DNA of 64,000 nt from Escherichia phage Bp7: the sequence record NC_019500.1, one strand, 5' to 3'. The position numbers were made by a program, and so were the translations under genes. Shown piece after piece: positions 1-20,552 of the stretch (position 1 is its first letter; each line of letters starts with the position of its first letter). The notes under the pieces are model-generated. The model did no database searches and had not been told where the DNA came from. It worked only from the letters and a program-made list of their open reading frames with translations.

Positions 1-586
1 AAAGTATTAATCGACCAAGCAGCTGCTGAGTTCGTAAGTAATGCCGAAGAGATTGCCGCGCTTCAAGCAGAGCTTGATAAAATCGTCTCTACCAAATCCA
101 CATTGGTAATGGAAAAATATCATCGTGGAATTCTGACAGAATGTTGAAGGATACTGGTATTAAAGGTTCCATTATTAAGAAATACATCCTATCTTTAATA
201 AGCAGATAAATTCTTATTTGAAGATTATGGAAGCCGACTACGTCTTTACACTAGACGAAGAGTTCAATGAGACGATTAAATCACGTGGACGTGAAGACTT
301 TAGTTATGCTTCATTTTCACAGGGTGAGAAAGCACGTATTGATATCGCACTACTTTTTACATGGCGTGATATTGCTGAAAAAGTCAGTGGAGCCACATTA
401 GTACATTAGTGTTGGATGAAGTTTTGATGAGCAGTTGACGCTGAGGCTGTTAAGGCGATTGCAAGTATTCTTAATAATCTTGAAGACAGTAATGTTTTTA
501 TAATCAGCCACAGGGACCATGACCATCAAGCATATGGCCAGCATTTACAAATGAAAAAGGTTGGTCGATTTACAATTATGGAATAA
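1..586 (+). pseudogene. 46: gene 46 recombination endonuclease subunit (SbcC/Rad50-like ATPase), 3' end; reading frame interrupted at about 141, 189, 395-410 and 420-430
   Basis: Conserved segments HRGILTE / MLKDTGIKGSIIKKYI / PIFNKQINSYLKIMEADY / SQGEKARIDIALLF (signature motif) / LVLDEV (Walker B) / NVFIISHRDH lie in three different frames, with stops in every frame around 407-430. Confidence 0.6.
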
Positions 587-591
587 GCCTC

Positions 592-1308
592 TTATTGAGG
601 CTTCATTTTACAGTTATCGAAATGCCAACGATTCATATTACCGGAATTCCCTTGTTTACCACAATGAGGGCATTCTACCTTCTTTTCTGATTTTTTGCGC
701 CCGTTAGGATTTTTCTTACAAAAAACTTTATGAGCCGCAATAACACAGGATTTTCCTGAAAGGCCGCAGAATTCACATTCCACAATTTTATAGACCATGT
801 TTTCTAGGCCTTTCTTTATTTTTAATTTTTGCTCCTCAGATATAGAGCGGTCCACTTTATTAGGGCCTTTAGGGCAGTTATCGAAATGCCATCTGTTCAT
901 ATTGCCTACCAATCCAGTTTTACCGCAGTGTGGACAGGTAACTCTAGGCTTTTTTAAAGCGGAAATTGACATTTTCTTTCTGGTTTCTTCCGAGAATTCT
1001 TTATCCTTTTGGACTTCTGAATTCTTACGACGAAGCCATCCAAATAATTTATTTTTAGACCTATCAGCTTTTGGTGAGCTAACTGTCATCATTCTTGCTG
1101 CATAGACTAACGATGCATTATCTGGATGGATTTTAACTAACAACTGATGAGCCAAGTAATGTTCTTCAGGTGTTAAGTCTACCAAGTTTAAAGCGTCGTC
1201 CGTTCCACCCATGCATTGTGGTATAATGTGATGACGTTCTTTATAGGTAGTTAAATTTCTATTAACTGCTCGTTGAATAAGCTTTTCGTATATTGATTTA
1301 TAATTCAT
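592..1308 (-). CDS. HNH homing endonuclease (Mob-like) with repeated C-terminal CPHCGK...NMNRWHFDNC zinc-finger-like motifs
   Basis: ORF track 592..1314 begins on TTG; the first ATG is at 1308 behind an AAGGA RBS; HHIIPQCMGG motif; inserted between 46 and 45.2. Confidence 0.65.
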   Translation of the reverse strand: MNYKSIYEKLIQRAVNRNLTTYKERHHIIPQCMGGTDDALNLVDLTPEEHYLAHQLLVKIHPDNASLVYAARMMTVSSPKADRSKNKLFGWLRRKNSEVQKDKEFSEETRKKMSISALKKPRVTCPHCGKTGLVGNMNRWHFDNCPKGPNKVDRSISEEQKLKIKKGLENMVYKIVECEFCGLSGKSCVIAAHKVFCKKNPNGRKKSEKKVECPHCGKQGNSGNMNRWHFDNCKMKPQ

Positions 1309-1344
1309 TATCAAATCCTTATTTGATACAGCGACCGATAAAGA

Positions 1345-1352
1345 TATTTATA
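1345..1352 (-). promoter_or_regulatory. T4-type late promoter (TATAAATA) upstream of the minus-strand HNH gene
   Basis: Reverse complement of tatttata at 1345-1352, about 35 nt upstream of the ATG at 1308. Confidence 0.35.
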
Positions 1353-1546
1353 TGGCTTCCAATTTTATAACAGGCCAGCATTTGTTGGCCGTTCCTGAAC
1401 TAAAGCGGTATGTTTTAGTTAATAACTTCTCTGGAGACGAACATCTTGTTACTGAAGATTATCTCCGAAATGCTTTTAAGTCAGAGTATGATAGAATCAT
1501 GTCGAACAGGAATCCTGCCTGGTTCGTTTATGAATACTTTGATTAA
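1352..1546 (+). CDS. small hypothetical protein, positional equivalent of T4 45.2
   Basis: 64-aa ORF between gene 46 and rpbA. Confidence 0.4.
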   Translation: MASNFITGQHLLAVPELKRYVLVNNFSGDEHLVTEDYLRNAFKSEYDRIMSNRNPAWFVYEYFD

Positions 1547-2048: not shown

Positions 2049-2747
2049 ATGAAATTCTCTAAAGAAACTCTGAACATTCTGAAAAACTTCTCCGGTATTA
2101 ACCCAGGTATCATGCTTAAACCTGGTAACACTATTCTAACTCGTTCAGTAACGGGTGCAAGTTATGGTGAAGCTACTGTAAATGACACCTTTGATATCGA
2201 AGCCGCAATCTACGACCTGAACGGCTTCTTAAGTATTCTGTCATTGGTATCTGATAGTGCTGAAGTTTCGGTAAGTGAAGACCAAACCACCTTAATTATT
2301 AAAGACCAACGTTCAACTATTAAATGGCCTATTGCCGACCCAAGTACAATTGCATTCCCAAGCAAAGCTATTCCATTCCCGGTGGCTGAAGTTATTTTCG
2401 ACCTTAAAGCCGAAGATTACCAACAGTTGATGCGTGTGTCCTCTGGATTGAGTATTGATACATTTGCTATCACTGTAGACAACGGTAAAATTGTAATCAA
2501 TGGCTACAAACAAGTTGATGATAAGGACCTGGCACGTCCATTGTATTCCTTAGTGGTTGCAGACCATGATGGTCCTGAATTCAAATTCATTATCAACAAA
2601 ACTAATATGAAAATGATGCCTGCCGATTACCATGTATTGTTATGGGCTCGTGGTGAAGGTCAGGACGCTCGTTTCGCAGCCAAGTTTGAAGGTTCACAAG
2701 CTTCTTATGTATTGGCTATGGAAGCAGGCTCAAGCCACTCGTTCTAA
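2049..2747 (+). CDS. 45: gp45 sliding clamp
   Basis: 232-aa ORF alignable along its length with T4 gp45 (T4 is 228 aa). Confidence 0.9.
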   Translation: MKFSKETLNILKNFSGINPGIMLKPGNTILTRSVTGASYGEATVNDTFDIEAAIYDLNGFLSILSLVSDSAEVSVSEDQTTLIIKDQRSTIKWPIADPSTIAFPSKAIPFPVAEVIFDLKAEDYQQLMRVSSGLSIDTFAITVDNGKIVINGYKQVDDKDLARPLYSLVVADHDGPEFKFIINKTNMKMMPADYHVLLWARGEGQDARFAAKFEGSQASYVLAMEAGSSHSF

Positions 2748-3325
2748 TGTATATATGTTATCATAATACGATAACCAACACTAAAACCAAGTGTGTCTAT
2801 CATTATTTTGGTAGACACCGTGTTACTGCTGAAGAATACTACGGTACAGGTAAGTTTGTTAAGAAATGCAAACGAGAAAATGCTATTACTCCAGGTCTTT
2901 GGGAGTTTTGTGTTGAAGTTATCCATACAGTGGATACGTTTAAAGAAGCCAAGATTATTGAAGAAGAGCTTGTTAAAGAAGGCATATCAAAATATGGTAT
3001 CCTTTGTGTTAATAAGAATCCTGGTGGTGATGGCGGTGTGGATTACCACACCGAAGAATCTAAACGTAAAATGTCAGAAACTAGAACAGGAAAATCAAGA
3101 ATATTTTCCGAAAGTCATAAAGAAAATTTAAGTAAACGAGCCAGAAAATACTCTGATGTTTGGTCCGAACCTGTATATTCAAATCTTAAAACCATTTGGC
3201 TGGAAACAGGTATGTTAAAACGCGGACGGTTTAGTACGCTTTTACAAAAATATGGGTATAATTATTCTGCGAATGAATTGAATAAAATTGTTAAACATTT
3301 TAATGAGGAAAATAATAATGAGTAA
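2747..3325 (+). CDS. GIY-YIG homing endonuclease (Seg-like) with NUMOD3-type repeats
   Basis: N-terminal YICYHNTITNTKTKCVYHYFG; repeats SKRKMSETRTGK and SHKENLSKRARK; start overlaps the gp45 stop (TAATG); inserted between 45 and 44. Confidence 0.55.
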   Translation: MYICYHNTITNTKTKCVYHYFGRHRVTAEEYYGTGKFVKKCKRENAITPGLWEFCVEVIHTVDTFKEAKIIEEELVKEGISKYGILCVNKNPGGDGGVDYHTEESKRKMSETRTGKSRIFSESHKENLSKRARKYSDVWSEPVYSNLKTIWLETGMLKRGRFSTLLQKYGYNYSANELNKIVKHFNEENNNE

Positions 3326-20351: not shown

Positions 20352-20552
20352 TTAAACCTGCATACCTGTAAAGAATCCAATGATGCTCAACACGTGTTCC
20401 ATAGTAACCGCAGGGAGAGTAATACCCTGACTAGCCGCAACAGGTACAACTAAAAGATTCCATAGGAACACATCTAAAGCAAGGAAGCCCATCATGAGCT
20501 TTTTATCTTTCTTGCTGGTTAATTTCCAAATTTGGTAAAATATACTACCCAT
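20352..20552 (-). CDS. small membrane protein with a late promoter (minus strand)
   Basis: 66 aa with two hydrophobic segments; GGAGGA RBS; reverse-complement TATAAATA upstream. Confidence 0.4.
   Translation of the reverse strand: MGSIFYQIWKLTSKKDKKLMMGFLALDVFLWNLLVVPVAASQGITLPAVTMEHVLSIIGFFTGMQV

What the first reader, a model, noticed from the sequence alone, without database searches (positions are those of the whole stretch)
592..1352. Minus-strand HNH endonuclease with duplicated zinc-finger-like repeats and a late promoter
The C-terminal half contains two near-identical CPHCGK(T/Q)G..GNMNRWHFDNC units plus a third degenerate Cys cluster, suggesting a tandem zinc-binding DNA-recognition array. 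A reverse-complement TATAAATA at 1345-1352 is placed correctly for late-promoter expression, opposite in orientation to the surrounding early genes.
Basis: partly seen in the sequence, partly recalled or inferred. Interest (0 to 1): 0.4.

Follow-up and report, generated by a model that had tools for sequence, protein, structure and literature searches.

The report
Mobile HNH nuclease gene beside gene 46
This is an ordinary, already annotated selfish gene of T4-like phages: a "homing" DNA-cutting enzyme with three zinc fingers and what looks like its own late promoter, which copies itself next to the phage recombination gene 46.

Summary
Window 592-1308 (minus strand) encodes a 238-aa Mob-type HNH endonuclease. 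It has three CCHC units (C-x2-C-x11/12-H-x3-C), and TATAAATA lies 36 nt upstream of its ATG. The window is a Dhakavirus, 98% identical to phage KIT01, where the same gene is annotated "mob-like endonuclease".

- **Mobile element:** The gene lies between gene 46 and 45.2, antisense to both. It is absent from many Dhakaviruses. It occupies the same site and orientation in six named genera and two unclassified phages.
- **Homing signature:** HEG-carrying genomes have a sharply bounded, about 75%-identical allele of the last ~240 nt of gene 46. This holds in two genera and points to a cleavage site inside gene 46.
- **Zinc fingers:** Fingers 2+3 match the two zinc fingers of I-TevIII (E 8e-9), which were shown experimentally to bind zinc and DNA. 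AlphaFold predicts beta-beta-alpha for each. Homologues carry 1-5 such units.
- **Late promoter:** The motif is exact in eight of eleven orthologous loci and a close variant in three. All seven TATAAATA copies in the window precede a start codon (six with a Shine-Dalgarno-like sequence), so a real late promoter is likely but unproven.

Verdict: a new member of a known kind, of low interest.

The parts
592..1308 (-). Coding sequence of the free-standing Mob-like HNH homing endonuclease (238 aa; ATG 1308-1306, TAA 594-592)
   Evidence: ORF list. PHROG 655 at E 2.6e-68. 98-99% identical genes are annotated 'homing endonuclease / mob-like endonuclease' in KIT01, MX01 and IME281.
1006..1308 (-). 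N-terminal Mob-type HNH nuclease domain (aa 1-101; beta-beta-alpha-metal core at aa 24-60 with H26, H27, N41, H50, H54)
   Evidence: BLASTP to RB3 MobE gives 44% identity, E 5e-25. Invariant residues come from the alignment with MobB, MobC, MobE and I-TevIII. AlphaFold2 predicts strands 24-27 and 42-45 and helix 47-60.
874..936 (-). Zinc finger 1, CPHCGKTGLVGNMNRWHFDNC (aa 125-145), C-x2-C-x12-H-x3-C
   Evidence: Regex on the translation. Beta-beta-alpha prediction: E122-124, E131-133, H134-144.
718..777 (-). Zinc finger 2, CEFCGLSGKSCVIAAHKVFC (aa 178-197), C-x2-C-x11-H-x3-C; this is the 'degenerate' unit
   Evidence: It aligns to I-TevIII finger 1. Predicted beta-beta-alpha: E175-177, E184-186, H187-199. 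The extra Cys188 is Ser in close homologues.
610..672 (-). Zinc finger 3, CPHCGKQGNSGNMNRWHFDNC (aa 213-233)
   Evidence: It aligns to I-TevIII finger 2. C213, C216, H229 and C233 are invariant in 52 homologues.
1345..1352 (-). T4-type late promoter motif TATAAATA (-13 to -6); predicted transcript start near 1339
   Evidence: Exact match. Exact in eight of the eleven orthologous HEG-carrying loci examined and a one- or two-base variant in three. The consensus and its numbering come from PMC1524935.
1309..1339 (-). Predicted 31-nt 5' UTR with Shine-Dalgarno AAGGA at 1320-1316
   Evidence: Read from the sequence. No significant RNA structure (z -0.78).
585..603 (.). Hairpin AAGCCTC-TTATT-GAGGCTT between the convergent stops of gene 46 and the endonuclease gene; possible two-way terminator
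   Evidence: Folding z-scores are -3.3 (+ strand) and -2.7 (- strand). Roth78 has AGACCTC...GAGGTCT at the same place, which preserves two pairs by changes on both sides.
346..586 (+). Co-converted allele of the last ~240 nt of gene 46, linked to the endonuclease gene; probable location of the cleavage site in genomes that lack the gene
   Evidence: 65-78% identity to the endonuclease-less IME08 here, against 98-100% further upstream. 96-97% only in endonuclease-carrying IME281, MX01, KIT01 and 04086, and at most 74.5% in every other record. The same pattern is seen in Tequatrovirus.
1352..1546 (+). Gene 45.2; its first codons were replaced by the insertion (MASNF... versus MSDF... in IME08) and its ATG overlaps the late promoter motif
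   Evidence: PHROG 1045 at E 3e-30.

Best explanation
The feature is a free-standing homing-endonuclease cassette of about 770 bp, inserted between gene 46 and gene 45.2 of a Dhakavirus (a T4-like phage).

**The protein.** It joins a Mob-type HNH nuclease domain (aa 1-~100) to three beta-beta-alpha CCHC zinc fingers of the I-TevIII type. Each finger is preceded by a helix.

**Proposed mechanism (inferred).**
1. Late in infection, RNA polymerase carrying the phage late sigma factor gp55 starts at the TATAAATA motif. This produces a short monocistronic mRNA, antisense to the surrounding early genes, which may end at the hairpin at 585-603.
2. The protein binds, through its zinc fingers, a conserved sequence in the last ~240 bp of gene 46 of a co-infecting phage that lacks the cassette. 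It nicks or cuts that DNA.
3. Recombinational repair from the cassette-carrying genome copies the cassette, together with the adjacent 3' end of gene 46, into the cut genome.
4. The carrier's own gene 46 allele differs at about 25% of nucleotides, mostly at synonymous sites. It is presumably not cut.

**Shown here:** the gene, its domains, the motif, its presence or absence at a fixed site, and the linked divergent tract in gene 46.

**Inferred:** late transcription, zinc and DNA binding, and the cleavage site.
For: **Family**
- PHROG 655 'homing endonuclease' at E 2.6e-68.
- 44% identity to MobE over the nuclease domain.
- Catalytic residues are invariant.
- 3093 homologues were found. 1078 phage records match, many annotated as homing endonuclease.

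**Mobility**
- The cassette is present in 5 Dhakaviruses and absent from many others that share 91-95% identical flanks.
- Orthologues of 45-68% aa identity sit at the same 46|45.2 junction, always antisense. They occur in Mosigvirus, Tequatrovirus, Pseudotevenvirus, Slopekvirus, Marfavirus, Klebsiella phage Roth78 and Yersinia phage P8.
- A one-sided, sharply bounded divergent tract covers the last ~240 nt of gene 46 in carriers versus non-carriers. It is seen in both Dhakavirus and Tequatrovirus and is strictly linked to the cassette. It is mostly synonymous: 70/80 aa against 180/240 nt identical.

**Fingers**
- E 8e-9 to the I-TevIII finger pair, whose zinc and DNA binding are experimentally shown (PMC1865063).
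- AlphaFold2 model with pLDDT 91 shows three beta-beta-alpha units.
- 119 of the 120 best homologues carry 1-5 such units.

**Promoter**
- Exact TATAAATA at -44 relative to the ATG.
- It is the outermost conserved element of the cassette across genera.
- All 7 copies in the window precede a start codon.
- Middle or late endonuclease-specific promoters are the rule in T4 (PMC2988022).
Against: - No transcript, zinc, binding or cleavage data exist for this protein or any close orthologue. None was found in the searched literature.
- The number of TATAAATA copies in the window equals the chance expectation.
- Conservation of the upstream region (about 76-80% between genera) is no higher than that of the adjoining coding DNA. 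The motif's persistence could therefore partly reflect recent common descent of the cassette.
- In two orthologues the motif reads CCTAAATA or CTTAAATA.
- No curated Pfam or NCBIfam HNH model reaches its cut-off: HNH_5 at E 0.0048 and HNH at E 0.14.
- Fold searches gave no significant match.
- The divergent gene 46 tract shows that an exchange happened, but not which enzyme caused it.
Confidence: 0.85

Rival explanations
1. The TATAAATA motif is not a working promoter. It persists only because the cassette is young and has been copied as a block. The gene would then be expressed weakly or not at all, like antisense segD in T4, or from some other minus-strand promoter further to the right.
For: - The motif count in the window is at chance level.
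- The upstream region is no more conserved than the neighbouring coding DNA.
- T4 segD, the only antisense homing-endonuclease gene in T4, has no identifiable promoter (PMC2988022).
Against: - The motif lies exactly at the edge of the cassette, and the core TAAATA is kept in every lineage examined although the proteins have diverged to 45% identity.
- All seven copies in the window precede a start codon, six of them with a Shine-Dalgarno-like sequence.
- The ORF is intact in every lineage examined, which implies selection for expression.
Confidence: 0.15
2. The zinc fingers serve mainly as structural or dimerisation modules. Sequence recognition would reside in the helices between the fingers (NUMOD3-like segments) or in the nuclease domain.
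For: - In I-TevIII the finger region also holds the dimerisation interface (PMC1865063).
- In I-TevI the zinc finger is a spacer, not a DNA binder (PMC2988022).
- Phage FB carries a C-terminal finger pair only 53% identical to the window's, at the same insertion site.
- Many homologues have a NUMOD3 motif.
Against: - Disrupting either I-TevIII finger reduced DNA binding.
- Finger number varies from 1 to 5 among homologues, as expected for modular DNA-contact units.
Confidence: 0.2
3. The gene is a decaying or domesticated remnant that no longer homes. It might, for instance, be retained because it supplies regulatory signals to 45.2, rpbA and gene 45, or because it excludes competing phages.
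For: - Embedded host promoters are known to stabilise T4 endonuclease genes (PMC2988022).
- A MotA-box-like GCTT plus TATAAT lies on the plus strand inside the 5' end of the gene (1281-1304). This was read from the sequence and is untested.
Against: - The ORF is full length with all catalytic and zinc ligands intact in every lineage.
- The patchy distribution and the linked co-conversion tracts in two genera indicate recent mobility.
Confidence: 0.08

Closest known systems
T4/RB3 MobE and the other T4 Mob proteins (free-standing HNH homing endonucleases)
   Same: - It has the same N-terminal nuclease domain (MNY..IY...HHI.P.CMGG.DD..NLV.LT..EH). Identity to RB3 MobE is 44% over 103 aa.
- It is free-standing and intergenic, between conserved replication and recombination genes.
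- Its target probably lies in the neighbouring conserved gene, as MobE's lies in nrdB (PMC2790892).
   Different: - MobE, MobB and MobC have no CCHC fingers.
- mobE is promoterless and co-oriented with nrdA. This gene is antisense to its neighbours and carries its own late-promoter motif.
- It sits at a different insertion site (46|45.2).
I-TevIII (phage RB3 nrdB intron-encoded HNH endonuclease)
   Same: - The C-terminal pair of CX2CX12-13HX3C zinc fingers matches at 38% identity over 65 aa, E 8e-9.
- In I-TevIII each finger binds one zinc, and the fingers are needed for DNA binding and dimerisation (PMC1865063).
- I-TevIII is expressed from middle and late promoters (PMC2988022).
   Different: - The I-TevIII nuclease domain is of the HNH_3 type (PF13392, E 1.9e-11), not the Mob type.
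- I-TevIII is intron-encoded.
- It has two fingers, not three.
T4 segD (the only antisense homing-endonuclease gene in T4)
   Same: It is oriented opposite to the flanking genes (PMC2988022).
   Different: - segD belongs to the GIY-YIG family.
- It lies among late genes.
- It has no identifiable promoter.
Classical C2H2 zinc-finger arrays (for example CTCF)
   Same: - The ligand spacing matches (C-x2-C-x12-H-x3-C/H).
- The predicted fold is beta-beta-alpha.
- These arrays are the best Foldseek matches, though not significant ones.
   Different: - The last ligand is Cys.
- The fingers are separated by 32-15 residues that include a helix, not by short TGEKP-type linkers.
- No significant structural or sequence match was found (E 0.086 or worse).

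Membership tests
HNH (His-Me finger) endonuclease, T4 Mob subtype | Conserved H-N-H catalytic and metal-binding residues in a beta-beta-alpha core | tested here: met
   H26, H27, N41, H50 and H54 are invariant in the alignment with MobB, MobC, MobE and I-TevIII and in 52 homologues. AlphaFold2 predicts strands 24-27 and 42-45 and helix 47-60.
HNH (His-Me finger) endonuclease, T4 Mob subtype | Significant match to a curated HNH profile | tested here: inconclusive
   Pfam HNH_5 at E 0.0048 and HNH at E 0.14, both below their gathering scores. NCBIfam gave nothing relevant. PHROG 655 'homing endonuclease' matches at E 2.6e-68, and pairwise comparison with MobE gives E 5e-25.
I-TevIII-type CCHC zinc finger | CX2CX12-13HX3C ligand pattern in the C-terminal domain | tested here: met
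   Three units are present, with spacings of 12, 11 and 12. The middle unit has 11 residues rather than 12-13.
I-TevIII-type CCHC zinc finger | Sequence homology to the I-TevIII fingers | tested here: met
   BLASTP of aa 174-236 against I-TevIII aa 207-266 gives 38% identity, E 8e-9.
I-TevIII-type CCHC zinc finger | One zinc bound per finger; fingers required for DNA binding | not testable with these tools
   Shown only for I-TevIII (PMC1865063).
Free-standing homing endonuclease gene | Present or absent at one fixed intergenic site among related genomes | tested here: met
   Five Dhakaviruses carry it and many lack it. It occupies the same site and orientation in six named genera plus two unclassified phages.
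Free-standing homing endonuclease gene | Co-conversion of flanking markers with the endonuclease gene | tested here: met
   A one-sided ~240-nt divergent tract in gene 46 is linked to the cassette in Dhakavirus and Tequatrovirus.
Free-standing homing endonuclease gene | Site-specific cleavage of the allele lacking the gene, and biased inheritance in mixed infection | not testable with these tools
   This needs cleavage assays and phage crosses.
T4-type late promoter (gp55-dependent) | TATAAATA at -13 to -6, upstream of the gene and in its orientation | tested here: met
   Exact motif at 1352-1345, 36 nt before the ATG. The consensus comes from PMC1524935.
T4-type late promoter (gp55-dependent) | Conservation at the equivalent place in orthologues | tested here: met
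   Exact in eight of eleven loci; CATAAATA, CCTAAATA and CTTAAATA in the other three.
T4-type late promoter (gp55-dependent) | A late transcript that starts about 6 nt downstream of the motif | not testable with these tools
   No transcript data are available.

The most novel reading that the evidence does not exclude
The Mob-type nucleases that carry 1-5 I-TevIII-type CCHC fingers could be natural 'zinc-finger nucleases'. Each beta-beta-alpha finger would read a short DNA element in a modular way, so that finger number and identity set the target. The 46|45.2 lineage would then represent a distinct, self-contained way for such a cassette to settle in a phage genome: antisense to its neighbours, with its own late promoter and a two-way terminator. 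This contrasts with the co-oriented, often promoterless endonuclease genes of T4.
Probability: 0.12. Interest if true: 0.55.

Novelty: new member of a known kind. Interest (0 to 1): 0.22.

Why it matters
It matters little beyond annotation. The gene belongs to a well-known class and is already labelled 'mob-like homing endonuclease' in near-identical public genomes.

Three modest points may interest specialists:
- **Domain combination.** The protein joins a Mob-type nuclease to the experimentally characterised I-TevIII zinc fingers. Neither Pfam nor NCBIfam (in the copies searched) has a model for these fingers that reaches threshold, even on I-TevIII itself.
- **Conserved arrangement.** This lineage is always antisense to its early-gene neighbours and brings its own late-promoter motif. 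It does so in six named genera and two unclassified phages. In T4 all endonuclease genes except the promoterless segD are co-oriented with their neighbours.
- **Testable target.** The sharp, one-sided co-conversion tract predicts that the target lies in the last ~240 bp of gene 46, which encodes the Walker B and H-loop region of the SbcC/Rad50-like ATPase.

Tried and rejected
- **Autorepressor operator.** I asked whether the conserved promoter and 5' UTR resemble the junction in cassette-less phages, as in I-TevI. Local alignments of six upstream regions against the T4 and IME08 junctions scored no better than shuffles (p 0.31-0.99). Rejected.
- **Translational hairpin over the ribosome-binding site.** The 5' UTR of the window folds no better than shuffles (z -0.78). 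The TATCAAAT/ATTTGATA inverted repeat is not kept in ST0 or PhiZZ30. Rejected.
- **Recent tandem duplication of fingers 1 and 3.** Ten of the 19 codons that encode the same residue differ between them. Rejected. The similarity reflects constraint on the motif.
- **Sequence search of solved structures.** Only chance hits (E 0.2 or worse).
- **Foldseek against the PDB.** Nothing significant. The best hits were C2H2 arrays and the Cas8-HNH domain.
- **Curated family models for the finger.** Neither Pfam nor NCBIfam has one above threshold.
- **Literature on this specific gene or motif.** Nothing found.
- **Sigma-70 promoter scan.** No plus-strand promoter for 45.2 in 300-2100.

Full report
**What the window is.** The first 2100 bases match Escherichia phage KIT01 (genus Dhakavirus, Straboviridae) at 98.1% identity. 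MX01, 04086 and IME281 match slightly less well. The gene order is gene 46, then the feature, then 45.2, rpbA, 45 and 44. In KIT01 the equivalent ORF is annotated 'homing endonuclease; mob-like endonuclease'.

**Checking the observation.** An ORF runs on the minus strand from 1314 (TTG) or 1308 (ATG) to 592. All homologues begin MNY, so the ATG at 1308 is the start, giving 238 aa.

A regex on the translation finds three C-x2-C-x(11-12)-H-x3-C units:
- aa 125-145, CPHCGKTGLVGNMNRWHFDNC
- aa 178-197, CEFCGLSGKSCVIAAHKVFC
- aa 213-233, CPHCGKQGNSGNMNRWHFDNC

Units 1 and 3 share 18 of 21 residues. However, 10 of their 19 identically translated codons differ, so they are not a recent duplication.

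TATAAATA on the minus strand occupies 1352-1345, 36 nt before the ATG, and AAGGA lies 7 nt before the ATG. The window holds 7 copies of the motif against 6.65 expected by shuffling. All seven lie, in the right orientation, 7-50 nt upstream of an ATG, six of them with a Shine-Dalgarno-like sequence. In a densely coding genome this placement is not random.

**What the protein is.**
- PHROGs assigns it to family 655, 'homing endonuclease' (E 2.6e-68).
- Residues 1-103 are 44% identical to RB3 MobE (E 5e-25).
- H26, H27, N41, H50 and H54 are invariant in an alignment with T4 MobB, T4 MobC, RB3 MobE and I-TevIII.
- Curated Pfam HNH models stay below threshold. NCBIfam gives nothing relevant.
- The C-terminal fingers are absent from MobB, MobC and MobE.
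- Fingers 2+3 align with the two C-terminal fingers of I-TevIII from RB3 (38% identity over 65 aa, E 8e-9).

Robbins et al. (PMC1865063) defined those I-TevIII fingers as CX2CX12-13HX3C. They showed about one zinc per finger. Disrupting either finger reduced DNA binding and cleavage, and the finger region contains the dimerisation interface. The I-TevIII nuclease domain is of a different HNH subtype (PF13392). The window protein therefore combines a Mob-type nuclease with I-TevIII-type fingers.

Among the 120 best database homologues, 119 carry between one and five such units. The unit is thus a recurrent module of this family.

An AlphaFold2 model built on 52 homologues has a mean pLDDT of 91.2. 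It shows beta-beta-alpha for the nuclease core and for each finger, and each finger is preceded by a helix. Fold searches with the whole model gave nothing significant.

**Evidence that it is a mobile element.**
- Seven records (five phages) contain the ~770-bp insert. Most other Dhakaviruses align to the flanks only.
- In IME08, genes 46 and 45.2 abut through an ATGA overlap.
- Orthologues of 45-68% aa identity lie at the same junction, always antisense to genes 46 and 45.2. They occur in Mosigvirus ST0, Tequatrovirus PhiZZ30 and FL08, Pseudotevenvirus UPEC03, Slopekvirus KpCCP1, Marfavirus pzk-kv8, Klebsiella phage Roth78 and Yersinia phage P8.

The flanks carry a one-sided exchange tract:
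- Against IME08, the 200-240 nt of gene 46 next to the insert are only 65-78% identical. Identity then jumps to 98-100%. The right flank is 92% identical for 80 nt and then about 98-100%.
- The same pattern holds for PhiZZ30 and FL08 against T4.
- This gene 46 allele is found at 96-97% only in four other carriers. It is at most 74.5% identical in all 838 other matching records.
- The changes are mostly synonymous: 70/80 aa against 180/240 nt identical.

This is the pattern expected for intronless homing. The cut would lie inside gene 46, some distance from the insertion point, and the carrier's allele would be protected by sequence divergence. The cleavage site itself is inferred.

**The promoter.** The T4 late promoter is TATAAATA at -13 to -6. 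The T at -13 is less conserved in other T4-like phages, and CTAAATA is used in Aeh1 (PMC1524935).

| Upstream motif | Loci |
|---|---|
| Exact TATAAATA, 41-53 nt before the ATG | window, KIT01, FB, ST0, PhiZZ30, FL08, Roth78, pzk-kv8 |
| CATAAATA | P8 |
| CCTAAATA | UPEC03 |
| CTTAAATA | KpCCP1 |

The motif is the outermost conserved element of the cassette, and sequence further upstream is unrelated between genera. By the T4 numbering, the transcript would start near 1339.

One caveat applies. The upstream region is no more conserved than the adjoining coding DNA (76-80% between genera), so conservation alone does not prove function.

The Edgell, Gibb and Belfort review (PMC2988022) gives context. 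Endonuclease-specific promoters in T4 are middle or late, never early. All T4 endonuclease genes are co-oriented with their neighbours except segD, which has no detectable promoter. This lineage therefore shows a less common arrangement: antisense to early genes, apparently driven only by its own late promoter.

A 7-bp-stem hairpin (585-603) lies between the convergent stop codons, with folding z-scores of -2.7 and -3.3. Roth78 keeps two of its pairs through changes on both sides. It may limit read-through in both directions. This is inferred.

**Ideas tested and dropped.** There is no similarity between the promoter/UTR region and the junction of cassette-less phages, so the operator idea fails. 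The UTR has no conserved or significant hairpin. The fingers are not a recent duplication.

**Verdict.** The feature is a Mob-like free-standing HNH homing endonuclease with I-TevIII-type zinc fingers and a probable late promoter. Its target is most likely the 3' end of gene 46. It is a new member of a known kind, already annotated in close relatives, and of low general interest.

Noticed in passing
window 1-440 (gene 46, + strand): Compared with KIT01, the window lacks single bases at about 140, 186 and 392 and two bases at about 426, several of them within short runs of one base. These deletions break the gene 46 reading frame several times. Gene 46 is normally needed for recombination, so sequencing or assembly errors seem more likely than a true pseudogene. 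The endonuclease ORF itself is intact and has the same length as in KIT01.
   Followed up: partly
window 2747-3325 (+): A second homing-endonuclease-like ORF (192 aa) lies between gene 45 and gene 44. It matches PHROG 314 'homing endonuclease' (E 9.2e-17) and weakly matches the NUMOD3 motif. KIT01 and IME08 have only a short spacer at this position.
   Followed up: partly
window 18344, 20574(-), 21172, 45148(-), 55185(-), 62181: The other six TATAAATA copies in the window each lie a short distance upstream of an ATG in the same orientation (Shine-Dalgarno-like sequence visible for five). They include small minus-strand ORFs such as 20352-20552. They are likely late promoters scattered through an early-gene region.
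   Followed up: partly
locus L011 (phage vB_EcoM_FB) 897-1613, compared with window 592-1308: The FB endonuclease is 149/152 identical over aa 1-152 but only 46/86 identical over aa 153-238 (fingers 2 and 3). It sits at the same insertion site. Its C-terminal part resembles those of Yersinia phage P8 and Klebsiella phage pzk-kv8. This indicates that the finger module has been exchanged by recombination between lineages.
   Followed up: partly
window 1277-1304 (+ strand, inside the 5' end of the endonuclease gene): The sequence ATAAGCTTTT, then 12 nt, then TATAAT resembles a MotA-dependent middle promoter pointing towards 45.2, rpbA and gene 45. I recalled the consensus from memory. The TATAAT also arises from the conserved MNYK codons, so this could be coincidence. 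It was not tested.
   Followed up: no
window 1352-1363 and locus L002 (IME08) about 2088-2100: The insertion replaced the first codons of 45.2 (MASNF... in carriers, MSDF... in IME08). It also removed the ATGA overlap that probably couples 45.2 translation to gene 46. In the window the 45.2 ATG overlaps the late-promoter motif and has no obvious Shine-Dalgarno sequence.
   Followed up: no
loci L012 (Yersinia phage P8) 1996-2187 and hit H140 (phage ESCO10): The small 45.2 ORF is labelled 'DNA topoisomerase II medium subunit' in these public records. This is probably an annotation error.
   Followed up: no
I-TevIII, locus L010 11234-12043 (-): Neither Pfam nor NCBIfam, in the copies searched, has a model that reaches threshold on the experimentally characterised I-TevIII CCHC fingers. 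One homologue (P0026) carries a precomputed PF28519 hit that I could not look up.
   Followed up: no
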